Positions 13,356 to 42,873 of a DNA stretch of 64,000 nt are shown one piece after another (position 1 is the stretch's first letter; the number at the start of each line of letters is the position of its first letter). The stretch is from Candidatus Kerfeldbacteria bacterium. Its GTDB lineage: Bacteria > Patescibacteriota > Patescibacteriia > SBBC01 > CAIJZX01. Where the stretch lies: contig CAIJZX010000015.1 in the NCBI GenBank assembly GCA_903825245.1, positions 28,564-92,563 of the forward strand. Direction: 5' to 3'. The notes beneath the pieces are model-generated. The model had not been told where the DNA came from and did not search any database. It saw only the letters and a list, made by a program, of their open reading frames with translations. The position numbers and the translations under genes were made by a program.

Positions 13356-13819
13356 TTCGCCGCGGCAGTCTTATCATTGAAGTCCTCCTCAGCGCTGGTT
13401 TGATTGCTGTGTTCGCTTTATTTTTAAGCGGCTTGCTTGTTGTTACCAGCAAGACGAATCGCTTAGCCAAAGAAGAGTCGCAAGCCGCGGCGTACGCCCA
13501 GCAGAACATGGAACAGCTGGTAGCCATCAAAAATACGAAATGGAGCGATCTCAGCACTGGAACGTTTTATATTTCGAAATCAGGACCAACATCATACGGA
13601 TTAAATGCTACACCGACCGGCGATACTCTGGATGGACTGTACCATCGGTTGATCACTATCACCGAAGTCCGTCGTGACGCGTCACAAAATATTGTTACCA
13701 CGGGCGGAACGGTTAATGGAAAGTCTTTGCAAGCAAACGTAACCGTTTCGTGGTCTGATAATGGTAATCACCAAGTGATGTTAGTTAATTATTTTACGAA
13801 CTGGAAGGATTTACCGTAA
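13352..13819 (+). CDS. minor pilin / pseudopilin
   Basis: N-terminus MIRRGSLIIEVLLSAGLIAVF is prepilin-like. Confidence 0.65.
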   Translation: MIRRGSLIIEVLLSAGLIAVFALFLSGLLVVTSKTNRLAKEESQAAAYAQQNMEQLVAIKNTKWSDLSTGTFYISKSGPTSYGLNATPTGDTLDGLYHRLITITEVRRDASQNIVTTGGTVNGKSLQANVTVSWSDNGNHQVMLVNYFTNWKDLP

Positions 13820-13820
13820 T

Positions 13821-14375
13821 ATGAAACGTCCTGGATACACCCAGCACCACTTTTTCCAATCACTTCGACGTTTGTATTCGCAGCACCGCCAGCAAAAAGG
13901 TGGTGCTGGGTATACTCTTGTCGAACTCCTCGTCTATCTTGGACTCAGTAGTCTGGTGCTGTTACTGATGACCGGATTTCTGGCGCGCGTTATGGGCAAT
14001 AAAGCGATTGCTGCCACGCAAACGCAATTACAAGAGAACGAACGGACGGTCTTCGATGCGATGACCGTAGCGATACGTAACTCGTATGAAGTCACCGTCG
14101 AGAATAGCGGTACGAAAGTGATCGTTAAGTCGCATCCGGAAGATTCTGGCTTAACCACATATACCGTCTTTCAGGTGGATGCACACCAGCGGCTGAGTAT
14201 GGGTCAAAATGAGGATTTTATGCTCGTTGACCCCCAACCAATTACCGATGACGGTATTATCGTCAAGGCGTTTTCTGCCACGGTGATTTCTTCGTCACTT
14301 GAGGTGACACTGGTGATACAAAAGGGCACTCAAACGAACGCCTTTACTTCGACAATCGCTTTTCGCCAACAGTAA
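13821..14375 (+). CDS. minor pilin / pseudopilin
   Basis: GYTLVELLVYLGLSSLVLLL prepilin-type N-terminal helix follows a basic leader. Confidence 0.65.
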   Translation: MKRPGYTQHHFFQSLRRLYSQHRQQKGGAGYTLVELLVYLGLSSLVLLLMTGFLARVMGNKAIAATQTQLQENERTVFDAMTVAIRNSYEVTVENSGTKVIVKSHPEDSGLTTYTVFQVDAHQRLSMGQNEDFMLVDPQPITDDGIIVKAFSATVISSSLEVTLVIQKGTQTNAFTSTIAFRQQ

Positions 14376-14378
14376 TAT

Positions 14379-15452
14379 ATGCCTCAACGTCCCGGAGCAA
14401 TTACCCTCATCGCCACTTTTTTCACCGCCATGGTTGCGTTGATGCTGTTGTTGACCGTCAACATCCATGCGGTTGATGAAAAACAGCGGACGCACGATAA
14501 TACTATCTCCGAGCAGGCGTTTTATGCGGCGCAATCATGTACTGATGAAGCATATTTGCATCTTCGCACCGATGTGTCATTTCGCGACGTTGCTACGCTC
14601 AACATTGGCTCAGGAACGTGTACAGCACATATAACGCCATCAGGTCCTGACAGCGGCCAAATAGTTAGTACCGGTCGAAGCGGTAGTGCTATACGAACCA
14701 TCCAGTCCTCGTATTCGGGAGCTGGGGCGACGGTGGCTCAGAATAATACGCAGATTTATCACGTTATTGATCGCTCAGGCAGTATGGATGATCAAGTATG
14801 TACCGTTCCGACGTACACGTCACAATATGATTGTGAAGCCGTACATCATATGCAATGGGTAACGAAGGCTAGCGCGGCAAAAGACGCCGCCAAGTATTTC
14901 AATACCACAGTTCTTGTTCCTGGAAATACTCATGATTCAATTGGTTTAATTTCTTATGCTAGCGAGGCTACATGGGATAGTGCCTTGCAGACAGATGCAA
15001 GTGTGATTAACAATGATATTGATAACATGCCCAGTCCATTGAATAGCACTAATTTTGATGATGCTATTGCTCTAGCTGTTCAGCATTTACCGGTTACACC
15101 GACACCTGTCACTCGAGCTATGATTTTACTGACTGACGGACAACCCACAACCTATCATACCGGACGAAGTTGTGTAGTTAACGGTCTCACGATGAGCAAT
15201 GATGACTGTTCAAAGTACTGGGGTCAGCAAGAAGCTCAGGCTGCCAAGGATGCTGGCATTCTTGTCTTTACGATTGGTTTCGGTAATATCACAGAAATTG
15301 ATATTCCATACATGGAGTCAATTTCTAGTGTGATTAATGGGCACACGCTTTTCTTTGCCCCGACTTCAACTGGACTAAACGACGTGTATAAAAAAATCTC
15401 TGATATTCTCATTCAGTATAACCTTCAACAGGGTAGCTGGAACGAGCAGTAA
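14379..15452 (+). CDS. pilus-associated von Willebrand factor A (vWA) domain protein (PilY1/tip-adhesin-like)
   Basis: N-terminal pilin-like TM helix, MIDAS motif DRSGSMDD, and LLTDGQPT. Confidence 0.7.
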   Translation: MPQRPGAITLIATFFTAMVALMLLLTVNIHAVDEKQRTHDNTISEQAFYAAQSCTDEAYLHLRTDVSFRDVATLNIGSGTCTAHITPSGPDSGQIVSTGRSGSAIRTIQSSYSGAGATVAQNNTQIYHVIDRSGSMDDQVCTVPTYTSQYDCEAVHHMQWVTKASAAKDAAKYFNTTVLVPGNTHDSIGLISYASEATWDSALQTDASVINNDIDNMPSPLNSTNFDDAIALAVQHLPVTPTPVTRAMILLTDGQPTTYHTGRSCVVNGLTMSNDDCSKYWGQQEAQAAKDAGILVFTIGFGNITEIDIPYMESISSVINGHTLFFAPTSTGLNDVYKKISDILIQYNLQQGSWNEQ

Positions 15453-16900: not shown

Positions 16901-17254
16901 ATGGAAATTAACAAGGATCTTATCGCCGCGTCCTCAACCCCAATCGTCTTAGCGACCCTCGCGAAGCGGGAGAGTTATGGCTACGCGATTTTGAAGCAGG
17001 TGCAGGATGCCTCGGGTCAGCACATCGAATGGACCGACGGCATGCTGTATCCGGTCTTGCATCGTCTCGAGCGGCTGGGCTACATCGACGGCACCTGGAA
17101 AGACGCGGACAGCGGACGGAAGCGGAAGTACTATCGGATCACGTCTCGGGGGCGAAAACAGTTGGCCGACGAGCTCAAACAATGGCGCGCGGTAGACGCG
17201 ACGATTCGCGGTATCCTACCGGCCATGACCATGCAACTTTCTCACCGCCTATGA
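16901..17254 (+). CDS. PadR family transcriptional regulator
   Basis: Winged-helix PadR motifs (YGYAILKQV...MLYPVLHRLERLGYI). Confidence 0.85.
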   Translation: MEINKDLIAASSTPIVLATLAKRESYGYAILKQVQDASGQHIEWTDGMLYPVLHRLERLGYIDGTWKDADSGRKRKYYRITSRGRKQLADELKQWRAVDATIRGILPAMTMQLSHRL

Positions 17255-18603
17255 CCACACCGCACATCGAACAGCAGATCGAGCAGTGGCGCGAATACTT
17301 TCTGCGGCGTAAAGCGGTGCAATCGCAAGATGTCGCTGAACTCGAAGATCACTTGCGAGAACAAATTACCGGATTGGAGAAGAATGGCTTGTCGTCCGAT
17401 GAGGCGTTTTTGGTAGCCATCAAGCGCCTTGGGGATCTCGACAGCATTTCACGCGAGTTTGCGCGAGAGTATTCGGAACGCTTGTGGAAACAGCTTGTGG
17501 TCGCGCCGTCGGATACCGAAGCAGGGGAATCGCGAACTGAGTGGATGATGGTGTTGGGATTGGCTGTGCTCGCCGCGCTGTTGATTAAAGCTCCAACCCT
17601 GTTTGGCTTACAAATTGATCGTGATTGGGGATTCTACGTTCGTAATGTAAGTTTTTCGGTTTTACCAATCTTGGCCGGATACTTTATCTGGAAGCGAAAG
17701 TTGAGTGGGAAGTTTGTTGGGTGGGTTGCGGCGGCCTTTGTGGTTGCGGCGATCGTGATGAATGTTTTTCCATTTCATCTCAATGGCTCAACGATCGGTT
17801 TATCGGCGTTGCACTTGCCGATTGTGTTGTGGTTTGTTGTTGGTGTGGCGTATGCCGGATCGCGATGGCGTGAGGTTACCGGACGGATGGATTTCATTCG
17901 CTACACCGGTGAGTTGTTTATCTACTACGCCTTAATTGCCCTCGGCGGCGGTGTGCTGTCCGGGTTCATGCTCATGATATTTGAATCTATTGGTGTGAAC
18001 ATCAGTCCGGTAATCGGGTTATGGGTTATACCATGCGGTGCGGCCGGCGCGGTGATTATTGCCTCGTGGCTTGTCGAGGCGAAGAAGAGCGTGATCGAAA
18101 ATATGGCACCCGTTCTGACAAGATTATTCACGCCGCTGTTCGCTTTAGTATTGCTCGTGTTCTTAACGACGATGGTCTGGACGGGGAATGGCGTTAATGT
18201 GGCGCGTGATGTCCTCATCGGTTTTGATTTGCTGCTGGTTGTCGTTCTCGGATTGTTTGTGTACTCGATGTCCGCACGATCACCGCAAGCGAAGCCGGGC
18301 ATGTCTGATATTTTGCAGATTATTCTGTTGGTTAGCGCGTTGCTGGCGGACGCGGTAGCGCTGTGGGCGATCGCTTCGCGCATTTCAGAACTTGGTTGGA
18401 CGCCGAATCGAGTGGCCGCCCTTGGCGAGAATATTATTCTGCTCGTTAATCTCGCTTGGTCGAGCGTATTGTACCTGAAGTTCTTCCGCAAGCAGGGGAC
18501 GTTCGCGGAGCTTGAAAAATGGCAAACGCAGTACATAGCCGTCTACGCTACTTGGGCGATGATCGTCGTCGCACTATTCCCACTACTATTCGGATTTCGT
18601 TGA
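17251..18603 (+). CDS. PadR-associated membrane protein (DUF1700-like N-terminal domain + polytopic domain)
   Basis: ATGA overlap with the padR stop. The N-terminus HIEQQIEQWREYF...DEAFLVAIKRLGDL resembles the permease-prefix/DUF1700 family. About 10 TM helices are predicted. Confidence 0.7.
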   Translation: MTTPHIEQQIEQWREYFLRRKAVQSQDVAELEDHLREQITGLEKNGLSSDEAFLVAIKRLGDLDSISREFAREYSERLWKQLVVAPSDTEAGESRTEWMMVLGLAVLAALLIKAPTLFGLQIDRDWGFYVRNVSFSVLPILAGYFIWKRKLSGKFVGWVAAAFVVAAIVMNVFPFHLNGSTIGLSALHLPIVLWFVVGVAYAGSRWREVTGRMDFIRYTGELFIYYALIALGGGVLSGFMLMIFESIGVNISPVIGLWVIPCGAAGAVIIASWLVEAKKSVIENMAPVLTRLFTPLFALVLLVFLTTMVWTGNGVNVARDVLIGFDLLLVVVLGLFVYSMSARSPQAKPGMSDILQIILLVSALLADAVALWAIASRISELGWTPNRVAALGENIILLVNLAWSSVLYLKFFRKQGTFAELEKWQTQYIAVYATWAMIVVALFPLLFGFR

Positions 18604-28895: not shown

Positions 28896-29357
28896 AAATC
28901 TGGTCTAACCATAGTATGATGATCACGGCGATGGGAAATCCCCAGCGCCGCGATTTTTAAGTTGGTGAATAGTTTGTTTTTCTTGCTATTCATCAGAAAA
29001 CATCGATTTATGTAGTGATTTTTACAATAAAAAAGCATATATTGCATTCAATGGCGAAATGACTGAGAAAATTGTAGTCCGACCAGTCGGATGGTGTTTC
29101 GGGTATAATTACTGGCCGAAGCGCAGGGGATTGCCCTTGAAAGTTGTCGCCTCCGTGTTGCCACGCTAGTGCCCCCATTTACTTGAAATAAGTGACTAAA
29201 ACCCGTAGCGTCAAGCGTGAGCAGTAGTTGCGGACGATCGAAGAAGTGGAAAACTTTACTATTTGACATACCCTATCGAACATGGTACAGTCGGTGGGCT
29301 TATGAATGTCATCTTGTCACGTGGTACTACGGACACTCCGAAAGGAGGTGCGACGCC

Positions 29358-29636
29358 ATGGTTGAAGTAAAGAAACGAGAAAACGAATCTTCGGAAAGCC
29401 TGGTTCGGCGATTTACGAAGCGCGTCCAGCAGAGCGGCGTCCTTATCCGTGCGAAAAAACGGCGTTTTTACGAAACCCCGAAGAATAAACGTGCTGTTCG
29501 AGAAGGCGCCCTGCGTCGCGTTATTATTCAAGATCAACGCGAACTGCTCCGACGTCAAGGAAAACTTGAAGAATTTGATTTGAAAAAACGCGGACCGCGA
29601 CGAAAGCCGCTCCCACGTATTCCCTCAACATTCTAA
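29358..29636 (+). CDS. rpsU: 30S ribosomal protein S21 with C-terminal extension
   Basis: SD AAAGGAGGTG at 29341-29350. Sequence MVEVKKRENESSESLVRRFTKRVQQSGVLIRAKKRRFYE... A candidate TTGACA-17-TACAGT promoter sits about 75 nt upstream. Confidence 0.88.
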   Translation: MVEVKKRENESSESLVRRFTKRVQQSGVLIRAKKRRFYETPKNKRAVREGALRRVIIQDQRELLRRQGKLEEFDLKKRGPRRKPLPRIPSTF

Positions 29637-30120: not shown

Positions 30121-33100
30121 ATGCGTCGTTCGCACATGCTTCGACAACGCTCCCTCGCCCTGCTGAGTATCACCTTGATATTCGGAGGGTTAGTGGCGTT
30201 CGTTCACGCTCCTCATGTGCATGCTGCGACGGCGACGACCTATAGCCTCGAGTCGATAGGCGGACAGGTCGGACTTGGGAATGCGGACCTGAAGCAGGTG
30301 ATTATTAATATCATCAAGTGGGCGCTCGGTTTATTAGCGTTGGTGGCCGTGTCCTACATGATCTACGGCGGGTATGTGTGGATGACGGCGGCCGGTAATG
30401 AAGCTCGAGTTGAAAAAGCGAAACAAATTATTCTCCAGGCCGCAATCGGCTTAGTGATTGTGCTTCTTTCCTGGGCGATCGTCTTGTTTGTGACGAAGTC
30501 GTTATTGAATGTGACCACCAATACAGATGCTGGAACGACCTGCACTCCCGGAGTGGACTGCGCTATTCCTCCTGTTACCGGTGATGAATTTGATATCACC
30601 GCTATCAATACCTGTGCTGTGCCGCCAAAGACCTATGAGAATGTACCGCGTTCCAGTTCGGTGTCGATCACCTTTAATACTGATGTCCAAACGACCCCGA
30701 ACTATGTCCAAACGGCCGTCGGCACTGGTGCCGATGATTTACAGATTGTAAAAATATGTACTGATCTAGCCGCTGGTTGCGTCGTCGGTTCTCCTATCGC
30801 ACCAAATCCAGCGCCAATCGACAACCAAGTATATACGTCCGGACCAAAACCGACTGCGACTGCGGCTGATCTACCGCAGAAAGCAGAGTGGGTATTGAAA
30901 GATAATTCGTTAACGTTCTATCACCTTACGTTGGCGCAGTGCAAGGACGGCACGAAAATCGGTCAAACGTGTGCCGCAGATACGGATTGCACGGACCCGG
31001 ACGCCACAACGCACGTCTGTCAAAAAACGGACCGGTATTTTGATGCCAGTTCGACGTACCGAGTCACAATTCCTAAAGATACCAACACCAAGGCACTCAA
31101 AGACGTTCGTGGTCGGGTATTGCAAAGTTGTGGTGTGCCGGGTCTCGGCGGCGCGATCGATCATTGTACCAGTGATGCTAACAATTTTTATTACACGTTC
31201 ACGACTGGAACCGATACATCAGGTCCGGCGTTCGATGTTGTCAATACCGCGCCGTCGTCGGCATACATCGAAGACACAACGTTAACAGTTGATCGGAATG
31301 TTCCGCGATCAGAAATTCTGTCCATTAATTTTTCGGGCGGCGTCGATCCAGCGTCGGTAACAACGGATAATTTCCGTGTCTATAAAATTACTAACACCCC
31401 AACAAATCTCAACGATGGAACGTGTACGGGTCCTGGACCAGCTTTTGCCCATATCAACTGTCCAGAAACAACAGTTGATCCCAATGATTTCAATATCCGC
31501 GTCAGCGCTTCAGGGCAAGGCATCGTTCTGCAGTACAAAGACCCAACAAAATGGTTTGACGCCTATACCTGGTATCGCGTGGACGTTAAAGATATTCTGA
31601 ACCTTTGCGGAACGAGCGCGAAGCGATCGTGGGTGTTTGAAACGAATAACGTCACGCCCGGTGTCGAGTATGTCTATCCAAATACCGGCTTTGGTTTTTC
31701 CTGTCCGAGTACCGATGTCTACGCACAATTTACTACGTCGATGATGAATATTGCGGCGAGTACGAGTTCGTGTTTTACCGGCAACGCAACGTCGTTCAAT
31801 ACGCAATTAGAAATGTATAAATATACGGCGCCCGTGGGCATGATTACACCCCGGTTGAATTGGAAATTTGATCAACCGCCAGTGGGAGCAACGGATCCAA
31901 ATAATTACTGTAAACACTTGTGGTATGATCCGACGACCGATAGTCTGCCAATCGATTCGGAGCTTGGGATTAGTATTACTACTGATCGGGCAAAAGATGC
32001 CGCTGGTACCAAGCTAACCTATGGTGACACAGTTCCCGGTCCAATGCCGACGAGTGATCCGGTTGGGAGCTGGCACTTTATGGTGAAAAAACCTGGTGAA
32101 TGCGCAAATGCGCCAGTGGTACAATCAGTTTCCCCAGGGGTAGACGCCAATGGTGCTTGTATTTCGGTGCTAGGAAAATACTTTACCGATCCGGCGAAAC
32201 CGGCGCCCGGGACGACCTATCCGCGTGCGATTGATACGTTGGATTTATCATCAAAAGTTCAAGGTCTTTCAACGATTAAGTCGTGGACAGACAACACGAT
32301 TGTTAATCGATTAGATGCGGGGACGGGTGCTGGAGCGCTTACACCAAATGCAGGAAGTGATCCAGCGACCTATTACAATTATAAAGTTGGCGTAAAGTAT
32401 GATGCGCCGATTGGTCTTTTAGAGAGCCAGGTAACTCCTAGCAGTCATTTCCAGCTGAAGGCAGGCGCAGCTTCAAACCGCCCGTGTTTAACTTCAGTCA
32501 TTCCAGATCAAGGTTACGCGGGTGTAACGAAATTTGAAGCAAATGGTGAAAATTTTGGTACGGCGACCGGATCCATCGTTACCAATAACGCCACCGATTG
32601 GGTGCAAAGCCCGGCGACCCCGTGGATTCCCACCAAGGTAGAAAATATCCTGGTCAAGGCTAGTGCTGTTCCAATGACAACGGCGGTGCAAATAAAAAAT
32701 GCCGACGGCATCAGCAATGCAGTAAATTTCGAGGTGTTGCCGCCGGCAACTCCGGGAACGAATCCGGCGCCGGAAGTAATTACCGATACGACCTGTAACT
32801 TGGCAGGCGGGACGATACCCAGTCCGAACCCGGTAAACGGCGACACTATAGCTTGTAAAAATTCAGAAATTACCGTTCGTTTTACCACCAATCTAGATTC
32901 GAGTACGGTCAATTCTGGCACTGTGCAGGTGGTATCGGCGGGTCCAGTAATTCCGCTTTCTATAACCACGGTCGGCAATCTGGTGACCATAAAGCCAACG
33001 ATCATTACAGACATGTTTACCTCGGGTCAAACATACTCCGTAACCCTAACGACGGGTATTAAATCAACAGCGGGCGTGGCGATGACGGCGCCGTACCCAT

Positions 33101-36100
33101 GGTCGTTTCGGATTGACACGAGTGGCGACGTCTGTCACGTAACGAACGTGGAGTTGAATCCGAATGGAACGCAGCGCACCAATAATCCAAACTACTACCC
33201 GCCGATCAGTATTTCGGCGCTACCTACGGATACATCGTGTCATACACTAACTGCGTCGGGGAGTACGACCTGGACAAATTCCAAGCCAGCCGTCGGGACG
33301 ATTAATACGACGACGTCTGCTCAATCAAATATTCTCACGGCGCCGGCTGCAGGCGCGGCGTATAGTTCGACGACAGTTACCGCCAAAATACAATCAATCA
33401 CCAGCGCCCCAGGATTTACCCTGGAAGTGAGTCCGACCGGTTGCGCCTCGACGTCGGATTGTTTGAAGAATCGATTCGGCGCTTCTTGTAATGGTTCAAT
33501 GTGTCAGGGTGGACAATGTACGCCGGTGGTGAATAGCATAGTGCCGAATGTTGGGCCGGTCGGTGAATGGACAACGCTTAATGGTTGCTGGTTCGGAGCG
33601 TACGTGTTGGGTGCCAGCAAGGTGAATTTCTCTCCGTCAACTACCGACCCGTCTTCACCAGGTACCGAGGCTGATACTCCGGACGCTCTTATTTGTGGCA
33701 ACACCTGGACGAATGAACAGATTATCCGCATTGTTCCGCCGACCGCCGCGACAGGACCCATTCAGGTGATTCGCGGTGCGGATGGCTTCAAATCAACCGT
33801 TCTCGCTACCGGCGTACCGATCGGTTGGGGGGCTACCTTGGCTACGCAATCGACCGATGTGCCGACAGGTCACACAGGTTTTTCGGGAATGGCGGATGCG
33901 CCTAGCGGTGGACCTCAAGCATGGCTCGCTCAAGAGTTGCCGGGAACAAATACCGTTGGTGCGAAATATCATGTGATCGGTTGGGTTAAGGGGACTATTG
34001 TAGGAGGGTCAACAGCTGGTCTTATCACACGGTGTTCGGCAGATGTTGTTGGTGAAACCTGTGGGTACGATCTCTTGGGGGCTGCTCCAGGACTTCTCCT
34101 ATCAACGACCGGGTGGAAAAAGATAGATTTCTACATTACCAATAGCAATCCGGCGGATAATGATAAAAATATTTCGATTGACTGTTTTGCTAATCCAGGA
34201 AGTAAAATCTACTGCGACGATATCACCGTTACTAATGCGGATACTGGCGCGGTAGTGCCGGTCAATAACCCAAGTTTTGAAACGACAACGCCAATTTTTA
34301 CCGTCAATACTGCCGCCGTTGACCCGGGTATTTGTAAAATTGATCCTGTCTTCGGTCAGCAAGGCTCAGGCTTCAAGGTTTCCGGTAGCGCCTCACTCAT
34401 ATCAGCGGCTGGTACGCCGAGAAAATTCAGCTTTACAAATGGAGCAACCGTCGATGATGATGAAACTACCGCATTGCCGTGGACGACAACGACCGTGAAC
34501 GGTAAGGTACCGGGCACAGCAACACTCGGGTCAAATGAGGTGACGGCTACCATCAACGGAAAAACAAGTAATCCGCTACAGTACTCGGTGGATCCAGCAA
34601 CTTGTGCGCAAACCTGTAATACCGATGCGGAGTGCAATGTTGTGGGCAGCGATATTAATGGTTGTGGAACTCCCCAGGCGGCACTCGGTGGTTTAGGTTG
34701 CTGCGCGACACGGCCGAAAATTTCCTCTACGAATCCGGCGCAAGGGGCAACAAATATTTGTCTCAACCCGGCACCAAAAATTACGTTTGACCAACCGCTT
34801 GATCCATCAACTATTACCGCCGGACCATCAGGTACGGTGCAATACAAAGATGGATCACGGAGCGTTAACGGTACGGTGAGTTACCGAACAACAGCTACGA
34901 ACGAAGGGGAAATAACCTATTATCCTGGACTCTTATCAGCAAATAGTGCTCAGTCGATGTCATTTATATCATATGTTCCCGATCCTGGGACGACGTTGAT
35001 AGTTAAAAATCCAAGTTTTGAAACCCTGACGTCGGGGGGAGCACTTGACCCATGGAATGGATTCTCATCGCGAATTACACAGGCTGACCCGGCGCCGGGA
35101 CAACCGGTAGGATCGCATTCGGGGTTGGCTGATAATTCTGCTAGTTCTAGTGGTCAGGTGGCTTTGGCCCAAAATATTGCCAATACGAACGTCGTTGGAA
35201 CGACCTATCGCGTGACCGGCTGGGTAAAGGTGGGACATGTGAGCGGATCTGAAGTTGCCGGGTTAATTACACGATGTAGTGACGGTTCCGCCTGCGGATT
35301 TGATCTTTTTGGTCAGGCGCCGGGACTTTGGGGCGCGAGTAATAGTTTATCGGATTGGACTAAACTCGACTTCATGGTAACAAAAACGAGTGGTTTACCA
35401 AGCGTTAACCTTAACATTGATTGTTTCGCTAATGCGAAAAATAAAATCTGGTGTGACGATATCACGGTCACCAAAATGATCCCCAGTTTGATACCGAATG
35501 CTATCCGCGGTGCAAATGGCGTAGCGGCGGATGTAACTGGTTCACCGTTGACGTTTACCACGAACGCTACCATGTGTACGCCCGATAAGGTTAAAATTAC
35601 CCCCGTCAGCAAAAAGTTTGTTTCATCAGCTGATGCAACGTTTTCTGCGAAAATATATACTTCCGACGACGTTGAATTTTCCCCACTGCCCGGGCTGACA
35701 TTGGAATGGACATGGCTGAGTAGTACGCCGACGGTTGCCTCGGTTACTAAAATAGTGGCAACGCCGAATACCGCCACTGTTCATCCGGTTGTGAATGGCG
35801 CCACGACGATTACCGCGACGACAAAAGTAAGTGTAGCGCCTGGCAGTGTAGCAGCTGGCGCTTTGGATGCATCAATAAATGGACGCGAGATAAGTGGCCA
35901 ATCAGATGTTCAAGTAAAATTCTGTGCGAGTCCGTGGTCGTTTAGCGATACAGATTCAAACTGTGACACTGGTGGAACCTGCGAAGCTTTTAATTTCTCG
36001 ACGGATTACTGCGGTGACACTAGCGGAGCACCACTGCCGTCATTTTCCTACGAAGGCACTCTCCCCGGAATCGGTTCGATTGAAGGGGCGAACCTGGTTG

Positions 36101-37068
36101 ACACTACCCGATTGAAGAGCTACTTCTTTAAGGAGTCGGGGGTTAGTCGTGATACGATCGGGCTGCTCATCTTTAAAAATGATAACTTCCTGTCGCCGCA
36201 CGATTGGTTTACGCAGCGCTTCCCACTTGATTCTAGTGCTTCGTCAACCACGGTGGCGGGGTATCCGGCGGTGAAGTCGGGGACGACAACGTATATTGGT
36301 GTGACCGACTTATGGCACAATCCTGCAACAGGTAATGACGAATTGCGCGGGTTAATGTTCGTCTTCGACTACAATTCAAATAATGCTAGTCCGGAAACAG
36401 TAAATATCGCAGATCAATTACTGAGTGGCCTGCAGTTTAATACGAATTTCTCCGACTCCACCCAAAAAGCTCAGGTTATTCGCGACACGCTTCGCCGCCA
36501 GGATCTTACCTCGATGAAATTATCACTTGAGGCGTATAAGACGAAGAATGGCGCATATCCGGCTTTATCGGCGGGGTCGTATATTCCGGGGTTTTCGACG
36601 TCGGCGTGGCCGTCATGGCAATCAACACTTGGTAGTGCACTCGGTACAACAATCCCGACCGATCCAGTCAATTTGTTTGTTCGGCACTGCGTGGCGGATC
36701 CGACGAGAGCCTGTCGGGTCAAAAATGACTGTACATATATGTCCGCAGGTCGTATGGTGCAAGATACCTGTGGCACGGTGTCGGCTTGTGTATCTTCGGC
36801 TACTGATTCACATGAATCATCGACGTGCTGGTCGGAACCGGACAAGAATTTCCAATGCCCAACAAGTTCCGCGGTAAATATGTTCGGCGACACGATTGGC
36901 GGTTCACAACTCTACGCGTACCGTGCGCAAGGTGGTGGTGTCGATTTGTATACGACTATGGAATACCGCGGTGCCGGTTCGTTTATTCCCGCTGTTTTAC
37001 CAACTGGAATTTGTGCCGCTCCAAACGCCTGCGACTGTTTTAACTACTCGATGCATATTGGCTCATAA
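30121..37068 (+). CDS. giant (2315 aa) secreted surface protein: N-terminal VirB2/TrbC-like pilin hairpin anchor, multiple S-layer-type Ig-like domains, two CBM4/9-like modules, Cys-rich modules
   Basis: The frame is uninterrupted for 6.9 kb and Thr/Gly/Asn-rich. The N-terminus has a signal peptide and two hydrophobic helices (IIKWALGLLALVAVSYMIYGGYVWM ... AAIGLVIVLLSWAIVLFV). Repeated VPRS..I.F...VDP.SVT..NF.V motifs are Big/SbsA-Ig-like. NPSFET...W starts precede the duplicated ITRCS..CG(Y/F)DL(L/F)G...IDCFAN...(I/W)CDDITVT modules. Minus-strand ORFs inside are shadows. Confidence 0.85.
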   Translation: MRRSHMLRQRSLALLSITLIFGGLVAFVHAPHVHAATATTYSLESIGGQVGLGNADLKQVIINIIKWALGLLALVAVSYMIYGGYVWMTAAGNEARVEKAKQIILQAAIGLVIVLLSWAIVLFVTKSLLNVTTNTDAGTTCTPGVDCAIPPVTGDEFDITAINTCAVPPKTYENVPRSSSVSITFNTDVQTTPNYVQTAVGTGADDLQIVKICTDLAAGCVVGSPIAPNPAPIDNQVYTSGPKPTATAADLPQKAEWVLKDNSLTFYHLTLAQCKDGTKIGQTCAADTDCTDPDATTHVCQKTDRYFDASSTYRVTIPKDTNTKALKDVRGRVLQSCGVPGLGGAIDHCTSDANNFYYTFTTGTDTSGPAFDVVNTAPSSAYIEDTTLTVDRNVPRSEILSINFSGGVDPASVTTDNFRVYKITNTPTNLNDGTCTGPGPAFAHINCPETTVDPNDFNIRVSASGQGIVLQYKDPTKWFDAYTWYRVDVKDILNLCGTSAKRSWVFETNNVTPGVEYVYPNTGFGFSCPSTDVYAQFTTSMMNIAASTSSCFTGNATSFNTQLEMYKYTAPVGMITPRLNWKFDQPPVGATDPNNYCKHLWYDPTTDSLPIDSELGISITTDRAKDAAGTKLTYGDTVPGPMPTSDPVGSWHFMVKKPGECANAPVVQSVSPGVDANGACISVLGKYFTDPAKPAPGTTYPRAIDTLDLSSKVQGLSTIKSWTDNTIVNRLDAGTGAGALTPNAGSDPATYYNYKVGVKYDAPIGLLESQVTPSSHFQLKAGAASNRPCLTSVIPDQGYAGVTKFEANGENFGTATGSIVTNNATDWVQSPATPWIPTKVENILVKASAVPMTTAVQIKNADGISNAVNFEVLPPATPGTNPAPEVITDTTCNLAGGTIPSPNPVNGDTIACKNSEITVRFTTNLDSSTVNSGTVQVVSAGPVIPLSITTVGNLVTIKPTIITDMFTSGQTYSVTLTTGIKSTAGVAMTAPYPWSFRIDTSGDVCHVTNVELNPNGTQRTNNPNYYPPISISALPTDTSCHTLTASGSTTWTNSKPAVGTINTTTSAQSNILTAPAAGAAYSSTTVTAKIQSITSAPGFTLEVSPTGCASTSDCLKNRFGASCNGSMCQGGQCTPVVNSIVPNVGPVGEWTTLNGCWFGAYVLGASKVNFSPSTTDPSSPGTEADTPDALICGNTWTNEQIIRIVPPTAATGPIQVIRGADGFKSTVLATGVPIGWGATLATQSTDVPTGHTGFSGMADAPSGGPQAWLAQELPGTNTVGAKYHVIGWVKGTIVGGSTAGLITRCSADVVGETCGYDLLGAAPGLLLSTTGWKKIDFYITNSNPADNDKNISIDCFANPGSKIYCDDITVTNADTGAVVPVNNPSFETTTPIFTVNTAAVDPGICKIDPVFGQQGSGFKVSGSASLISAAGTPRKFSFTNGATVDDDETTALPWTTTTVNGKVPGTATLGSNEVTATINGKTSNPLQYSVDPATCAQTCNTDAECNVVGSDINGCGTPQAALGGLGCCATRPKISSTNPAQGATNICLNPAPKITFDQPLDPSTITAGPSGTVQYKDGSRSVNGTVSYRTTATNEGEITYYPGLLSANSAQSMSFISYVPDPGTTLIVKNPSFETLTSGGALDPWNGFSSRITQADPAPGQPVGSHSGLADNSASSSGQVALAQNIANTNVVGTTYRVTGWVKVGHVSGSEVAGLITRCSDGSACGFDLFGQAPGLWGASNSLSDWTKLDFMVTKTSGLPSVNLNIDCFANAKNKIWCDDITVTKMIPSLIPNAIRGANGVAADVTGSPLTFTTNATMCTPDKVKITPVSKKFVSSADATFSAKIYTSDDVEFSPLPGLTLEWTWLSSTPTVASVTKIVATPNTATVHPVVNGATTITATTKVSVAPGSVAAGALDASINGREISGQSDVQVKFCASPWSFSDTDSNCDTGGTCEAFNFSTDYCGDTSGAPLPSFSYEGTLPGIGSIEGANLVDTTRLKSYFFKESGVSRDTIGLLIFKNDNFLSPHDWFTQRFPLDSSASSTTVAGYPAVKSGTTTYIGVTDLWHNPATGNDELRGLMFVFDYNSNNASPETVNIADQLLSGLQFNTNFSDSTQKAQVIRDTLRRQDLTSMKLSLEAYKTKNGAYPALSAGSYIPGFSTSAWPSWQSTLGSALGTTIPTDPVNLFVRHCVADPTRACRVKNDCTYMSAGRMVQDTCGTVSACVSSATDSHESSTCWSEPDKNFQCPTSSAVNMFGDTIGGSQLYAYRAQGGGVDLYTTMEYRGAGSFIPAVLPTGICAAPNACDCFNYSMHIGS

Positions 37069-37070: not shown

Positions 37071-37409
37071 ATGCCTGACGAACCATCATTGCCAATCTTA
37101 CCGACCGATGCCACGCCATCGTGGTTTGCGCGAAATCGGAAAATCGTTATACTAGGAGGACTTGTTCTTGTGCTGGCGGTGTTAGCGGTCTTCAGCTTCT
37201 TCTGGCGTTCTCAAGCAACAACGAATACGATAGTGAATAAAGCGGCCACGGTGAATGCAACAAACACGGGTTCGGATACTCAGTCGGATCGGACGACGTT
37301 TCAACGATCGACGGTCTCGACGACACCTGGTGCGCCGGTAAAAGCCTATGCTCCGCCGACGACGCAAGATCTTCAACAAGCGATTCAGCAACGCCAAGCG
37401 ACTAAATAA
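37071..37409 (+). CDS. small single-pass membrane protein
   Basis: 112 aa with TM helix IVILGGLVLVLAVLAVFSFFW. Its start is 3 nt after the giant gene stop. Confidence 0.55.
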   Translation: MPDEPSLPILPTDATPSWFARNRKIVILGGLVLVLAVLAVFSFFWRSQATTNTIVNKAATVNATNTGSDTQSDRTTFQRSTVSTTPGAPVKAYAPPTTQDLQQAIQQRQATK

Positions 37410-37447: not shown

Positions 37448-38593
37448 ATGTTTGAACAAAATACTCCACCACAACCGCAGTCGCCGAATCCTTTAAATCC
37501 GGTTATGCCGGGTGCCGGATTGCCTAGCCAGCAAATGCCGCCACCGATGCCGACACAACCGGTAACATCTGCTCAGCCGCTGGTACATACGATGCCGGAA
37601 CGGTTTCGTACGGCTGGTTCCGCTCCGGGCGGCCCAAAGAGTGGCTCGAGCACAACGAAAAAACTGATGATCACACTGGTAATCGTGCTCGTGGTCGCCG
37701 GGTTAGGTGTGGCTGGCTTATTTATCTTTACGAAGATGGTGAATAAGAATACGACCAATACGGCAAATACCAATGCCGCGGTAGCTCTTAACACGAACAG
37801 TGTGGCAACGAACGGGAATGGAAACGTGAATACTGTAACCAATAGCGTATTGAATACGAACAGTACGGACGCGAACACGTCGACCAATCTCAACACCAAC
37901 ACGGTTAGTAACGACAATACCAATACGGTCAGCAATGATAATACGAATGCGGTGGTGAGTAACACCAATACGAGTACAAATACGAACACCTCGGGCACGG
38001 TGACACTACAAAAATCGAGTGCCGATGCCGATAGCGACGGACTAACTGATGTCGAAGAAGCGGTGTATGGTACGGATGTTCATAATCCCGATACGGACGG
38101 TGATACATTTATCGATGGTCGTCAGGTTCGAGCTGATGGTACAGAAATCGGCGAACTGGTGGGGTTATATAACCCAAAGGGCACTGGTACATTAGAAGCA
38201 TCCGGGATCGTCAAGCGCGTAGAGAATGCCTCAAAAACCTATAGTCTTCTCGTGCCGACGACATGGACCACAAATGAATCCGCGAACGTATTAGTCATCA
38301 CGCCTGCCACACAGACCGGAGAATTTTTCCAAGTCCATACTTACGACAACACAAGTGCATTGACGGCACAGCAGTGGTACGTGGCGAATAATCCGCAAGC
38401 CCAGACCAGTCTCTTGAAGTCAGGGACGGTGAATGGGTTAGAAACGTTAACCAGTGAGGATGGTTTGACAGTATTCTTCTTCAAGGGGACAAAAGTTTAC
38501 GGAGTGAATTACACTACCGGTGGACTGTCATTGGTGAACTACCTGACCACCTTCGAAATGATGACCAAGAGTTTCAAACTCGTTGCCGCATAA
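37448..38593 (+). CDS. membrane-anchored Asn/Thr-rich repeat protein with Ca-binding-like Asp motif and C-terminal globular domain
   Basis: Pro-rich N-terminus, a TM helix, a low-complexity NTNTVSNDNTN repeat encoded by an imperfect DNA tandem repeat, DADSDGLTDVEEAVYGTDVHNPDTDGDTFIDG (thrombospondin-type-3-like), then about 150 aa of globular domain. Confidence 0.6.
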   Translation: MFEQNTPPQPQSPNPLNPVMPGAGLPSQQMPPPMPTQPVTSAQPLVHTMPERFRTAGSAPGGPKSGSSTTKKLMITLVIVLVVAGLGVAGLFIFTKMVNKNTTNTANTNAAVALNTNSVATNGNGNVNTVTNSVLNTNSTDANTSTNLNTNTVSNDNTNTVSNDNTNAVVSNTNTSTNTNTSGTVTLQKSSADADSDGLTDVEEAVYGTDVHNPDTDGDTFIDGRQVRADGTEIGELVGLYNPKGTGTLEASGIVKRVENASKTYSLLVPTTWTTNESANVLVITPATQTGEFFQVHTYDNTSALTAQQWYVANNPQAQTSLLKSGTVNGLETLTSEDGLTVFFFKGTKVYGVNYTTGGLSLVNYLTTFEMMTKSFKLVAA

Positions 38594-42055: not shown

Positions 42056-42372
42056 ATTTATAACAATTATCCACACCATTATCAGTACGTGGCGTCGGAA
42101 AAGATTACCCAATCAGACGCTAGGGAAGAAAACCATTCAAAATACTGAGCATCTCGTGGGGTTTGACCATCACTACATGTAGTAGTATACTGATGCTGTT
42201 ATACACCAGATGTAGTGGTAGCAAAAAATGGCCACTACCTCATAGACCAAAAACAGACGGGAACATTACCAAATCCACTCGCCGGCGTCGGCACCTAGCC
42301 ACCCTGATCTCGCCGGATGACACTATCTCCGTTTTACCGACGGCGCGGTTCGCGCCGACTTCATTTTCTCCC

Positions 42373-42873
42373 ATGAAATGCCCCTCTTGCCACAATTCTG
42401 ATACCAGCGTGATGGATTCACGAGTGACAGAAGAAGGGTTAGCGATTCGCCGCCGCCGAGAATGCGATCGTTGCGGCTATCGGTTCTCGACAGTTGAAGA
42501 GGTTGAAATATTAAACCTAGCGGTGATTAAACGCGCCGGTCATCGAGAGCCGTATAATCGAGAAAAGTTGGAGAACGGCCTACGGAAGTCGCTCGAGAAG
42601 CGGCCAGTAACGGTTGAAGATTTTAAACGATTAGTGGGGCAAATTGAGCGCGATATTCAGGTTCGCGGTCGAACAGAAATAACGTCGCATCAAGTCGGCG
42701 AACTGGCCATGAAACGGTTACAAAAAATGGATCAGGTTGCCTACATTCGTTTTGCCTCGGTCTATCGGAAGTTCCAAGACATTGAATCATTCAAACGGGA
42801 ACTTAACGCTCTGCCGAAGCAGGCGCCTCGACCGGGACAAACACTTCGTCGCCGAACAAAAAACGCTAAATAA
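42373..42873 (+). CDS. nrdR: transcriptional repressor NrdR
   Basis: N-terminal zinc ribbon MKCPSC...CDRCGYRF and ATP-cone domain. Start at ATG 42373, which is internal to the 42163 ORF. Confidence 0.88.
   Translation: MKCPSCHNSDTSVMDSRVTEEGLAIRRRRECDRCGYRFSTVEEVEILNLAVIKRAGHREPYNREKLENGLRKSLEKRPVTVEDFKRLVGQIERDIQVRGRTEITSHQVGELAMKRLQKMDQVAYIRFASVYRKFQDIESFKRELNALPKQAPRPGQTLRRRTKNAK

What the first reader, a model, noticed from the sequence alone, without database searches (positions are those of the whole stretch)
30121..37068. Giant 2315-aa surface protein with a conjugative-pilin-like (VirB2/TrbC-type) N-terminal anchor inside a core ribosomal/cell-division neighbourhood
One uninterrupted 6.9-kb ORF lies between rpsU-yqeY and ybeY-dgkA-ftsA-ftsZ. 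Its N-terminus has a signal peptide plus two hydrophobic helices (IIKWALGLLALVAVSYMIYGGYVWM / AAIGLVIVLLSWAIVLFV). That topology matches T4SS pilin subunits, not a sortase or LPXTG anchor. The rest is extracellular. It carries Big/SbsA-type Ig repeats (VPRS..I.F...VDP.SVT), CBM4/9-like beta-sandwich modules opening with NPSFE...W, and several tightly spaced Cys clusters (CAQTCNTDAECN; CLKNRFGASCNGSMCQGGQCTP). In a reduced, probably episymbiotic genome, such a protein is a prime candidate for a host-cell attachment or carbohydrate-recognition factor. The pilin-anchored giant-adhesin architecture is essentially uncharacterised experimentally.
Basis: partly seen in the sequence, partly recalled or inferred. 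Interest (0 to 1): 0.8.

Follow-up and report, generated by a model that had tools for sequence, protein, structure and literature searches.

The report
Giant adhesin built on a pilin
This 2,315-residue gene of an ultra-small (Patescibacteria/CPR) bacterium is a complete conjugation-type (VirB2-like) pilin subunit carrying a 2,180-residue extracellular stalk of Ig-like and sugar-binding-type modules, conserved at one core chromosomal site in dozens of related genomes, which makes it a strong candidate for an unrecognised cell-surface attachment fibre.

Summary
ORF 30121-37068 (+) is real and intact, and independent assemblies are collinear with it end to end. Pfam finds T4SS_pilin (PF18895) at aa 57-122 above its gathering score. 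It also finds two Big_5 Ig domains above threshold. The "CBM4/9-like" modules fail the HMM threshold, but a predicted structure matches CBM16/CBM4/CBM22 jelly-rolls.

1. The N-terminus is a whole pilin, not just an anchor. It is 51-68% identical, over 100-122 aligned residues, to free-standing 120-133-aa pilins encoded in arrays elsewhere in related genomes.
2. The order signal peptidase, HisRS, S21, YqeY, giant, orf381, YbeY, DgkA, FtsA, FtsZ recurs in 46 of the 83 related loci held (Kerfeldbacteria, Uhrbacteria, Paceibacter). The gene is therefore core and vertically inherited, not part of a mobile T4SS island.
3. The conserved C-terminus is a PsbP/Mog1-like domain followed by a domain weakly resembling a type IV pilin head.

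No VirB4-like ATPase was seen beside the pilin genes in the loci I examined.

Best reading: a "modular VirB2-type pilin". The pilin hairpin holds an adhesive, probably glycan-recognising, stalk in the membrane, possibly co-assembled with the small pilins. This is a new variant of a known kind. Its function is inferred, not shown.

The parts
30121..37068 (+). Giant modular pilin gene (2315 aa plus stop)
   Evidence: ORF listing and translation. Homologues are collinear over the full length.
30121..30225 (+). Sec-type signal peptide, aa 1-35: basic n-region MRRSHMLRQRS, hydrophobic core, VHA|A cleavage motif
   Evidence: Read from the sequence and the hydropathy scan. Most of the 46 relatives aligned show the same n-region, hydrophobic core and small-residue motif layout. 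Cleavage was not tested.
30226..30510 (+). Complete VirB2-type pilin module, aa 36-130: ecto N-segment YSLESIGGQVGLGNADLK, TM1, basic loop TAAGNEARVEKAKQ, TM2, tail ...NVT
   Evidence: Pfam PF18895 covers aa 57-122 at 34.2 bits, above the gathering score of 26.6. NCBIfam Mbov_0395 pilin-like scores 31.8 bits, below its cutoff of 40. In related genomes the giants' modules are 51-68% identical to free-standing 124-133-aa pilins. The window's own module is 43-64% identical to free-standing 119-149-aa pilins. Consensus identity to the B/C-type small pilins is 67 of 95 positions.
31294..31644 (+). Big_5-like Ig domain, weak match (aa 392-508)
   Evidence: Pfam on the isolated segment gives E 0.035, below threshold. 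It starts with the motif NVPRSEILSINFSGGVDPASVT.
32818..33111 (+). Big_5 bacterial Ig-like domain (aa 900-997)
   Evidence: Pfam PF13205, 62.2 bits for the whole protein; this is the best-scoring stretch.
33442..33519 (+). Cys-rich mini-domain (aa 1108-1133; CLKNRFGASCNGSMCQGGQCTP)
   Evidence: Read from the sequence. C1114, C1128 and C1133 are nearly invariant in the family alignment.
33523..33768 (+). IPT/TIG-like Ig domain, weak match (aa 1135-1216)
   Evidence: Pfam TIG gives E 0.032, sub-threshold. TIG is precomputed for several homologues.
33784..34245 (+). CBM4/9/16-like jelly-roll module, copy 1 (aa 1222-1375)
   Evidence: About 45% identical to copy 2 and aligned with it in A3. Most close homologues carry one copy of this module and a subset carry none.
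34603..34704 (+). Cys-rich mini-domain (aa 1495-1528; CAQTCNTDAECN...GCC)
   Evidence: Read from the sequence. C1495 and C1505 are nearly invariant.
34708..34884 (+). Big_5 Ig-like domain (aa ~1530-1588)
   Evidence: Pfam on the isolated segment: 34.8 bits, E 3e-8.
35008..35484 (+). CBM4/9/16-like jelly-roll module, copy 2 (aa 1630-1788; begins NPSFE)
   Evidence: AF2 model m3ac6eec15a8f has pLDDT 76.6 and pTM 0.74 and is all-beta. Foldseek against the PDB puts CBM16 3oea first (E 4e-6), followed by CBM4-2, CBM22 and CBM61. Pfam CBM_4_9 gives only E 0.089.
35932..36426 (+). PsbP/Mog1/DcrB-like alpha/beta domain (aa ~1938-2102)
36457..37065 (+). Conserved Cys-rich C-terminal domain with a 31-residue helix plus beta sheet; tentatively a type IV pilin-like head (aa 2113-2315)
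37071..37409 (+). orf112: small single-pass membrane protein that starts 3 nt after the giant's stop
   Evidence: Translation. No Pfam family. tblastn homologue only in the closest loci, L001 and L005.
37448..38593 (+). orf381: conserved partner gene. P/Q-rich N-terminus, one TM, N/T-rich linker, TSP3-like Ca-binding repeats, C-terminal globular domain
   Evidence: Translation. A homologue lies downstream of the giant in 52 of the 83 loci held. TSP3_bac is weak here (E 0.12) and significant in the L003 homologue (25.3 bits), where PsbP is also weak.

Best explanation
The gene encodes a modular VirB2-type pilin.

Shown:
- The first ~130 residues are a complete Patescibacterial T4SS-type pilin. 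It has a Sec signal peptide with an AxA-type site, a ~22-residue ecto segment, a two-helix hairpin with a short basic loop, and a short tail.
- The module is the best-conserved part of the protein. It is near-identical to free-standing ~120-aa pilins encoded in arrays elsewhere in related genomes.
- The remaining ~2,180 residues are Ig-like domains (Big_5, TIG-like), two CBM4/9/16-type jelly rolls, disulfide-rich mini-domains, a PsbP-like domain and a conserved Cys-rich terminal domain.
- The gene occupies one conserved core-genome site across many Patescibacteria.

Inferred:
- After Sec export and signal-peptidase cleavage, the hairpin sits in the cytoplasmic membrane with VirB2 topology (both ends outside, basic loop inside). 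The whole stalk is then extracellular.
- Because the module matches the small pilins over their entire length, including the ecto segment, it probably packs against them. That could happen in the membrane pilin pool or as a rare (tip or base) subunit of a VirB2-type fibre.
- The stalk would then act as an adhesin whose jelly-roll modules and distal domains recognise glycans or envelope components of a partner cell.
For: - Pilin HMM above the gathering score.
- Topology features and the conserved loop YGG[YF]xWMTAAGNExxVEKAKQ are present across 46 relatives.
- The N-terminal 150 aa are 53-72% identical among the closer orthologues (P0002-P0028), which are only 33-48% identical overall.
- In three genomes the giant's module is 51-68% identical, over 100-122 aligned residues, to the last two small pilins of a separate array, against 27-45% for the other array members. 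Consensus identity is 67/95 against 31/95.
- The arrays also contain a ~400-aa pilin-module protein with PG_binding_1. The module is therefore reused to carry ectodomains.
- CBM jelly-roll fold and Big_5 domains.
- 62 Cys, many nearly invariant, consistent with an extracytoplasmic disulfide-bonded protein.
- No LPXTG motif and no SLH domain among the Pfam hits.
- The full gene order from S26 to FtsZ recurs in 46 of the 83 loci held, and YqeY sits upstream of the pilin module in 64.
- Published context: small VirB2-like pilin arrays exist in Patescibacteria and are essential in Southlakia, and no T4SS adhesin had been found.
- Established knowledge, from memory: in F- and T-pilus structures both pilin termini face the pilus exterior and the inter-helix loop lines the lumen.
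Against: - No VirB4, VirD4 or VirB6 gene was seen in the 64-kb window. The window was not annotated exhaustively, but it has no ORF of VirB4 size apart from the giant, the RNR and GlmS.
- Within +-10 kb of the 15 pilin-array or lone-pilin loci scanned, there was no VirB4-like ATPase. The only ORFs over 300 aa with a Walker A motif were a ClpB homologue and one untested 387-aa ORF. L041, L084 and L085 likewise show none.
- I could not test whether these genomes encode a T4SS at all.
- No VirB2-type pilus has been seen in any Patescibacterium. The review speaks only of a 'potential'.
- A 2,180-aa C-terminal extension cannot be tolerated on every subunit of a helical pilus, so incorporation would have to be rare.
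- Carbohydrate binding is inferred from fold alone, and the CBM HMM is below threshold.
- Core-genome location and tight packing with housekeeping genes would fit a structural envelope protein equally well.
Confidence: 0.55

Rival explanations
1. The protein is a structural envelope or S-layer-like protein. The pilin hairpin is only a membrane anchor. The protein forms part of a constitutive surface coat or spacer of the ultra-small cell. It makes no pilus, has no interaction with the small pilins and plays no specific role in host recognition.
For: - The gene sits at a core-genome site between rpsU-yqeY and ybeY-dgkA-ftsA-ftsZ. The full order recurs in 46 of the 83 loci held, across several candidate phyla.
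- No intrinsic terminator was predicted between yqeY, the giant, orf112, orf381 and ybeY.
- No T4SS gene was seen near the pilin genes in the loci examined.
- A conserved membrane partner, orf381, lies downstream.
- Big_5 is the Ig-like domain type also found in S-layer proteins such as SbsA (from memory).
Against: - A passive anchor would not be expected to be the most conserved part of the protein. It would also not be expected to stay about 60% identical to free-standing pilins over the ecto N-segment, both helices, the loop and the tail.
- The middle of the protein varies in module number. The CBM-like module is present in two, one or zero copies, and lengths run from about 1,400 to 3,700 aa. 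That is typical of adhesins under diversifying pressure rather than of lattice-forming proteins.
- No SLH domain or other wall-binding domain appears among the Pfam hits.
Confidence: 0.3
2. The protein is a precursor. It is cleaved just after TM2, near the conserved N-[VT]-T tail where the small pilins end. Cleavage would release an ordinary small pilin and a free 2,180-aa secreted protein. This would parallel the C-terminal maturation of RP4 TrbC by the signal-peptidase-like TraF (from memory).
For: - The small B/C pilins end at ...ARTTANVT. The giant continues from the equivalent ...LLNVTTNTD.
- An S26 signal peptidase gene lies four genes upstream in conserved synteny.
Against: - No cleavage motif has been defined.
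- The tail is less conserved in giants than in small pilins.
- The S26 gene may simply be the housekeeping LepB.
- Nothing in the data requires processing.
Confidence: 0.1
3. The protein is the adhesin of a conjugative or otherwise mobile T4SS island that was acquired horizontally.
For: - The Pfam and NCBIfam matches are to conjugation-type pilins.
Against: - Composition is uniform with the flanks (GC 0.49-0.52).
- No relaxase, VirB4, VirD4 or integrase was found among the window ORFs annotated.
- The locus is collinear with housekeeping genes in 46 of 83 related loci.
Confidence: 0.02
4. The ORF is an assembly chimera or a decaying pseudogene.
For: Nothing beyond its unusual length.
Against: - The frame is uninterrupted.
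- An identical protein is on record from a 122,690-bp contig.
- 27 homologues are collinear over their full length in independent assemblies.
- Cys, Trp and Gly residues are invariant throughout the length.
Confidence: 0.01

Closest known systems
Small VirB2-like pilins of Patescibacteria (Pfam T4SS_pilin PF18895; arrays described by Quinonero-Coronel et al. 2025, PMC12102498; essential pilin array of Southlakia epibionticum, Wang et al. 2023, PMC10633639)
   Same: The module is the same: signal peptide, ecto segment, two-helix hairpin, basic loop and tail. The window's module is 43-64% identical to free-standing pilins, and related giants are 51-68% identical to the small pilins of their own genomes. 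The phylum is the same.
   Different: Those pilins are 110-150 aa and often lie next to virB4. This protein carries a further ~2,180 aa, sits at a housekeeping locus, and no T4SS gene was seen near it. Neither paper mentions giant or fused pilins.
Modular type IV pilins, e.g. Streptococcus sanguinis PilB and PilC (PMC8179133, PMC9934059)
   Same: The design principle is the same. A pilin module is fused at its C-terminus to an adhesive module (vWA or lectin-type). The fusion is proposed to be polymerised at low abundance into the filament made of the small pilins and to mediate adhesion.
   Different: This is an unrelated filament superfamily: a VirB2/TrbC two-helix hairpin with a Sec signal, not a type IV pilin with a class III signal. 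The grafted part is 10-20 times larger. Incorporation into a filament is unproven here.
Giant Ig-repeat surface adhesins of bacteria (e.g. SiiE, Mobiluncus giant adhesin PMC10619420; large surface proteins noted in Absconditicoccaceae, PMC13059738)
   Same: A very long extracellular chain of Ig-like domains with lectin-type modules. It is among the largest proteins of a small genome.
   Different: Those use T1SS export, LPXTG/sortase or other anchors. Here the anchor is a complete conjugative-type pilin. There is no LPXTG and no SLH or T1SS signal among the Pfam hits.
CBM4/9/16/22 family carbohydrate-binding jelly rolls
   Same: The predicted fold of aa 1630-1788, and of its paralogue at aa 1222-1375, matches CBM16, CBM4-2, CBM22 and CBM61 best. 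The Pfam CBM_4_9 alignment spans nearly the whole profile.
   Different: The sequence score is below the family threshold (13.6 against 25.9 bits). The module has four invariant Cys not typical of these CBMs. It is not attached to a glycoside hydrolase. Ligand binding is untested.

Membership tests
VirB2/TrbC-type T4SS pilin (Pfam T4SS_pilin PF18895) | Profile-HMM match at or above the curated gathering score | tested here: met
   34.2 bits against 26.6, aa 57-122, profile positions 5-69 of 71. All 46 homologues carry PF18895.
VirB2/TrbC-type T4SS pilin (Pfam T4SS_pilin PF18895) | Cleavable Sec signal peptide followed by two hydrophobic helices joined by a short basic loop | tested here: met
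   Hydropathy peaks at aa 10-33, 57-87 and 99-132. The loop TAAGNEARVEKAKQI has net charge +1. A VHA|A motif is present. Cleavage itself was not tested.
VirB2/TrbC-type T4SS pilin (Pfam T4SS_pilin PF18895) | Small single-domain protein (~100-150 aa) | tested here: not met
   The protein is 2315 aa, with ~2,180 aa following the module. It therefore contains a pilin but is not a canonical pilin.
VirB2/TrbC-type T4SS pilin (Pfam T4SS_pilin PF18895) | Encoded with a T4SS (VirB4 ATPase and other mating-pair-formation genes) | tested here: not met
   No T4SS family was found among the window ORFs scanned. None was seen within +-10 kb of the pilin genes in the related loci examined. Presence elsewhere in the genome could not be tested.
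VirB2/TrbC-type T4SS pilin (Pfam T4SS_pilin PF18895) | Polymerises, with phospholipid, into an extracellular pilus | not testable with these tools
   Needs microscopy or biochemistry. No such pilus has yet been shown for any Patescibacterium.
Big_5 bacterial Ig-like domain (PF13205) | Profile-HMM match above the gathering score | tested here: met
   62.2 bits for the whole protein (gathering score 23.6), with stretches at aa 900-997 and aa ~1530-1588 (34.8 bits on its own). A third copy at aa 392-508 is only E 0.035.
CBM_4_9 / CBM4-9-16-22 jelly-roll carbohydrate-binding modules | Profile-HMM match above the gathering score | tested here: not met
   13.6 bits against 25.9, E 0.089. Only 2 of 13 module sequences match at all. 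A PDB sequence-profile search gave no relevant hit.
CBM_4_9 / CBM4-9-16-22 jelly-roll carbohydrate-binding modules | Beta-jelly-roll fold superimposable on solved CBMs | tested here: met
   Model pLDDT 76.6, all-beta. Most of the top 27 Foldseek PDB hits are CBMs (CBM16, CBM4, CBM22, CBM61) or glycan-binding modules, with E 4e-6 to 4e-4 and TM 0.42-0.61.
CBM_4_9 / CBM4-9-16-22 jelly-roll carbohydrate-binding modules | Binds a carbohydrate through a cleft lined with aromatic and polar residues | not tested
Type IV pilin / pseudopilin (T2SSG-like head domain), considered for aa 2113-2315 | N-terminal class III signal peptide (N-methylation motif) and a hydrophobic alpha1-N helix | tested here: not met
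   The domain is C-terminal and its long helix is amphipathic and charged (RDTLRRQDLTSMKLSLEAYK). Of the short proteins and proteins with an N-terminal copy of this domain that I inspected (12), none starts with a prepilin motif.
Type IV pilin / pseudopilin (T2SSG-like head domain), considered for aa 2113-2315 | Sequence or fold match to the pilin alpha-beta roll | tested here: inconclusive
Sortase-anchored (LPXTG) or SLH-anchored surface proteins | C-terminal LPXTG sorting signal, or SLH domains | tested here: not met
   No LP.[TSA]G anywhere in the protein. The C-terminus is ...CDCFNYSMHIGS, with no hydrophobic or charged tail. No SLH domain appears among the Pfam hits.

The most novel reading that the evidence does not exclude
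Patescibacteria of the Kerfeld-, Uhr- and Paceibacter-type lineages use the VirB2-type pilin as a general surface-display module. This use is uncoupled from any conjugation locus. Small pilins form a membrane-rooted fibre or platform. Modular pilins are co-assembled into it: the giant, ~600-aa forms, and ~400-aa forms carrying PG_binding_1. The giant would be the long-sought adhesin or host-recognition fibre of the essential Patescibacterial 'T4SS pilin' system. Its distal pilin-head-like domain might link it to the type IV pilus apparatus encoded 15 kb upstream.
Probability: 0.2. Interest if true: 0.85.

Novelty: new variant of a known kind. Interest (0 to 1): 0.62.

Why it matters
Patescibacteria are a large share of bacterial diversity, yet how they attach to and recognise partner cells is largely unknown outside a few Saccharibacteria.

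VirB2-like pilins were recently found to be widespread in the group and essential in the one genetically tractable species. No pilus has been seen, however, and no adhesin has been linked to them.

This locus supplies a concrete and testable candidate:
- It is a pilin that carries its own 2,180-residue adhesive stalk.
- It is conserved at one chromosomal site in dozens of genomes.
- Matching small pilins and a conserved membrane partner are encoded alongside it or elsewhere in the genome.

If the pilin module co-assembles with the small pilins, the "modular pilin" principle, so far known only for type IV pili, would extend to the unrelated conjugative-pilin superfamily. It would also explain why monoderm, conjugation-deficient Patescibacteria keep VirB2 genes.

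If the module is only an anchor, it still defines a new class of membrane anchor for giant surface proteins.

Tried and rejected
- **PDB sequence-profile searches.** The C-terminal domain (A2) and the CBM-like module (A3) gave nothing useful.
- **Self-BLAST of the whole protein.** It listed no off-diagonal pairs. A chunked BLAST found the single internal duplication, aa 1255-1410 against aa 1667-1829.
- **Search for a T4SS.**
  - No VirB4, VirD4 or VirB6 family was found among the window ORFs scanned.
  - Of the ORFs over 300 aa around the 15 array or lone-pilin loci scanned, only two have a Walker A motif. One is ClpB and one (387 aa, L063) was left untested.
  - The large ORFs next to lone pilins in L072 and L083 are ClpB and a P-type ATPase. 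The one in L078 has no Pfam match.
  - Arrays found through small-pilin look-ups also lack T4SS genes.
- **Exact look-up of the window's own protein.** It found no contig on record, and its cluster carries no name or accession. The source organism is therefore known only through relatives.
- **Word-indexed search with the pilin module alone.** It retrieved only 43 candidates, 9 of them significant, so it gave no census of fusion architectures.
- **Promoter and terminator scan.** Counts were no higher than in shuffled sequence, so co-transcription with rpsU, yqeY and ybeY is suggested only by spacing.
- **Hypotheses rejected.** Misassembly, a mobile T4SS island, and LPXTG or SLH anchoring.
Full report
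**1. The observation**

The window holds one uninterrupted ORF at 30121-37068 on the + strand, 2,315 codons with an ATG start. A stop-free run of that length has a chance probability of about 5e-49.

Base composition matches the flanks (GC 0.49-0.52).

- the two hydrophobic stretches, at aa 64-88 and 107-124;
- CLKNRFGASCNGSMCQGGQCTP, at aa 1114;
- CAQTCNTDAECN, at aa 1495;
- NPSFE, at aa 1383 and 1630.

A hydropathy scan finds only three strongly hydrophobic segments, all within the first 132 residues. The protein is rich in Thr, Ser, Gly and Asn. It has 62 Cys.

**2. Neighbours**

Pfam confirms the flanking genes.

| Position | Gene |
|---|---|
| 24626, 25669 | ABC-2 transporter pair |
| 26763 | signal peptidase S26 |
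| 27489 | HisRS |
| 29217 | ribosomal protein S21 |
| 29645 | YqeY |
| 30121-37068 | the giant |
| 37071 | orf112 |
| 37448 | orf381 |
| 38583 | YbeY |
| 38984 | DgkA |
| 39495 | FtsA |
| 40818 | FtsZ |
| 42163 | NrdR |
| 42904 | class II ribonucleotide reductase |

- orf112 starts 3 nt after the giant's stop.
- orf381 overlaps the start of ybeY.

No terminator-like site separates these genes. The scan is no better than shuffled sequence, so this is weak evidence.

**3. Not an artefact**

An identical protein, called from a start 24 codons further in, is on record from a 122,690-bp contig. Twenty-seven homologues of 33-48% identity from independent assemblies are collinear from N- to C-terminus. 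They differ mainly in how many copies of one module they carry.

**4. Domain anatomy**

- **Pilin module.** T4SS_pilin (PF18895) matches aa 57-122 at 34.2 bits, above the gathering score of 26.6. NCBIfam's Mbov_0395 pilin-like conjugal transfer family scores 31.8, below its cutoff of 40.
- **Ig domains.**
  - Big_5 matches aa 900-997 and aa ~1530-1588, both above threshold.
  - A weak third Big_5 lies at aa 392-508.
  - A weak TIG lies at aa 1135-1216.
- **CBM-like modules.**
  - One internal duplication exists: aa 1255-1410 against aa 1667-1829, about 45% identical.
  - The Pfam CBM_4_9 match is sub-threshold (E 0.089) although it spans the profile.
  - An AlphaFold2 model built on a 13-sequence alignment is all-beta (pLDDT 76.6, pTM 0.74).
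  - Its best PDB matches are CBM16, CBM4-2, CBM22 and CBM61 (Foldseek E 4e-6 to 4e-4, TM 0.5-0.6).
- **C-terminal 390 residues.** This region and the pilin module are the most widely conserved parts. The model is confident (pLDDT 79.2, pTM 0.81) and shows two sub-domains.
  - The second has a 31-residue helix followed by beta strands and several disulfides.
  - Weak T2SSG Pfam hits appear in 10 of 21 family members.
  - Foldseek and PDB sequence profiles find nothing for it.
  - Its long helix has no hydrophobic alpha1-N-like stretch.
  - I therefore treat "type IV pilin-like head" as tentative.
- **Spread of the C-terminal domain.**
  - An exhaustive HMMER search finds it in 1,606 cluster representatives (1,377 at E<=1e-10).
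  - Most of the best 150 are giants of 1,400-6,060 aa.
  - It also occurs at the N-terminus of 800-1,160-aa secreted proteins that continue into TSP3 and Cys-rich repeats.
  - None of the 12 sequences inspected has a prepilin leader.

**5. The N-terminus is a whole pilin**

The alignment of 46 relatives shows a shared layout:
- a signal peptide ending in a small-residue motif;
- an ecto segment, FSxESIGxxxGLGxADLK;
- TM1 ending in YGG[YF]xWMTAAGNE;
- a basic loop, xRVEKAKQ;
- TM2, ILQAAIGLVIxLLxWAI;
- a short tail.

This is the best-conserved part of the protein. Among the closer orthologues (P0002-P0028) the first 150 aa are 53-72% identical, against 33-48% overall.

The genome-collection scan also pulled in about 20 loci that match only this module. 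Most are a second, itself syntenic, locus with the following order:
- a solute-binding protein gene;
- a ~400-aa pilin-module protein with PG_binding_1;
- three small pilins of 112-133 aa (PF18895, 44-51 bits);
- a DUF2079 membrane protein.

I compared giant and array within the same MAG in three genomes.
- The giant's module is 51-68% identical, over 100-122 aligned residues, to the last two small pilins.
- It is only 27-45% identical to the other array members.

Consensus sequences agree at 67 of 95 positions for giants against B/C-type small pilins. They agree at 31 of 95 for giants against A-type small pilins.

A direct search with the window's module returns 119-149-aa PF18895 proteins at 43-64% identity.

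The small pilins end at ...ARTTANVT. The giant carries the equivalent ...LLNVT and then runs on for 2,180 residues. The gene is thus a small pilin plus an extension. Some lineages have further versions: ~600-aa or ~1,000-aa pilin-module proteins just upstream of the giant, and tandem giants in Kerfeldbacteria CP181398.1.

**6. A core-genome locus**

Look-ups of four homologues showed the same gene order around each.

The scan of one genome per species found at least 478 relatives. The 79 distinct loci kept are titled Patescibacteria group, Candidatus Kerfeldbacteria, Uhrbacteria, Paceibacter or Parcubacteria group. Some TPA bins are evidently mislabelled as "uncultured Gammaproteobacteria".

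I ran tblastn with the window's neighbours against all 83 loci then held.
- The full order S26, HisRS, S21, YqeY, giant, orf381, FtsA, FtsZ (with YbeY and DgkA in most) recurs in 46 loci.
- YqeY lies upstream of the pilin module in 64 loci.
- Both ends of the giant are detected in 55 loci.
- orf381 is detected downstream in 52 loci.
- Many of the incomplete cases are contig ends.

This rules out a mobile T4SS island. It shows vertical inheritance across lineages in which the protein has diverged to about 25% identity.

**7. No T4SS in sight**

- No VirB4, VirD4 or VirB6 family appears among the window ORFs I scanned. The window has no ORF of VirB4 size other than the giant, the reductase and GlmS.
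- What the window does hold is a type IV pilus cluster at 10071-15452 and ComEC at 59318.
- Around the 15 array or lone-pilin loci scanned, only two ORFs over 300 aa have a Walker A motif. One is ClpB and one (387 aa, L063) was not tested.
- The large ORFs beside lone pilins are ClpB and a P-type ATPase, plus one with no Pfam match.
- Two further arrays sit among housekeeping genes.
- The literature reports VirB4 in most Patescibacteria, often near dnaA, with pilin genes near virB4 in only about 58% of assemblies.
- A T4SS elsewhere in this genome is therefore plausible but untested.

**8. Mechanism**

Shown:
- the architecture;
- the conservation pattern;
- the paralogy to small pilins;
- the core synteny.

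Inferred from established VirB2 and TraA biology, from memory:
- Sec export and signal-peptidase I cleavage.
- A hairpin with both ends outside and the basic loop inside. This puts the whole 2,180-residue stalk outside the cell.

Further inference:
- A passive anchor has no reason to keep its ecto segment, loop and tail matched to the free pilins.
- The module therefore probably packs against those pilins. That could be in the membrane pool or as a rare subunit of a VirB2-type fibre, where pilin C-termini face outward.
- The jelly-roll modules, variable in copy number, and the conserved distal domains would supply binding specificity.

The closest analogy is the "modular pilins" of Streptococcus sanguinis type IV pili (PMC8179133). 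Those belong to an unrelated filament family.

The main rival is a constitutive envelope or S-layer-like protein using the hairpin only as an anchor. It fits the housekeeping context and the absence of T4SS genes, but not the conservation pattern.

A precursor-cleavage model is possible but unsupported.

**9. Novelty**

Databases already tag these proteins with PF18895 plus PF13205 and name them "Ig-like domain-containing protein".

The papers I could search describe only small VirB2-like pilins and arrays. One states that no adhesins were detected, and none mentions fused or giant pilins.

I therefore class this as a new variant of a known kind. The parts are known. What appears undescribed is a complete conjugative-type pilin carrying a giant adhesive stalk, fixed at a core locus across a major Patescibacterial radiation.

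The interest is moderate to high for specialists in CPR biology and T4SS. It is limited because function rests on inference.

Noticed in passing
window 10071-15452: Type IV pilus gene cluster: PilB-type ATPase (T2SSE plus MshEN), PilC (T2SSF), three small ORFs of which two carry the prepilin N-methylation motif, and a VWA-domain protein that could be a tip adhesin.
   Followed up: partly
window 37448-38593 (orf381), with a tandem repeat at 37891-37953: Conserved partner gene downstream of the giant in 52 of the 83 loci held. It has a P/Q-rich N-terminus, one TM, and an Asn/Thr-rich low-complexity linker containing a 24-nt tandem repeat. It also has TSP3-like Ca-binding repeats and a C-terminal globular domain, which is weakly PsbP-like in one homologue.
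   Followed up: partly
window 30505-30513 (aa 129-131, NVT); small pilins in L041, L036, L054: An N-[VT]-T sequon 5-8 residues after TM2 is conserved. It forms the very C-terminus of the small B/C pilins (...ARTTANVT) and sits at the same position in Kerfeld-type giants. It could be a glycosylation site or a processing site. It is unexplained.
   Followed up: no
L041 10001-12648; L085 6592-8465; L084 8485-11313: Related genomes have a second, syntenic pilin locus: a solute-binding protein gene, a ~400-aa pilin-module protein with PG_binding_1, three small PF18895 pilins, and DUF2079. L084 has six pilins in a row. None is next to a VirB4-like ATPase.
   Followed up: yes
L004 8001-25945 and L029 (Kerfeldbacteria CP181398.1): Two giant pilin-fusion genes (3,314 and 3,357 aa) lie in tandem at the same yqeY-ybeY site.
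   Followed up: no
L038, L048, L056, L062, L064, L068, L079 (about 1.8 kb upstream of each giant); L074: In these loci, two of which are titled Uhrbacteria, an extra pilin-module protein of ~590-620 aa (1,018 aa in L074) lies between yqeY and the giant. This is a third size class of modular pilin.
   Followed up: no
L011, L012, L015, L016, L018, L021 and others; L061: Many TPA MAG records titled 'uncultured Gammaproteobacteria bacterium', and one 3.5-kb contig in a 'Pirellulales' bin, carry this Patescibacterial locus with full synteny. The titles or bins are evidently wrong.
   Followed up: no
window 59318-60727: ComEC competence channel (Competence plus DUF4131 domains), as is common in Patescibacteria.
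   Followed up: no
window 29217-29636 and 42163-42873: The mechanically listed ORFs for S21 (139 aa) and NrdR (236 aa) start too early. The Pfam matches begin at aa 51 and aa 71, so the true starts are probably downstream. A sigma-70-like site at 29263-29291 lies upstream of the likely rpsU start.
   Followed up: no
window 17029-18603: A 524-aa polytopic membrane protein with a basic, Arg-rich N-terminus and no Pfam family.
   Followed up: no
P0079, P0098, P0105, P0120, P0144: The giant's C-terminal pair (PsbP-like domain plus Cys-rich helix-sheet domain) also occurs right after the signal peptide of 800-1,160-aa secreted proteins. These continue into TSP3 repeats and long Cys-rich repeat arrays. 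The pair therefore behaves as a mobile module within this phylum.
   Followed up: partly
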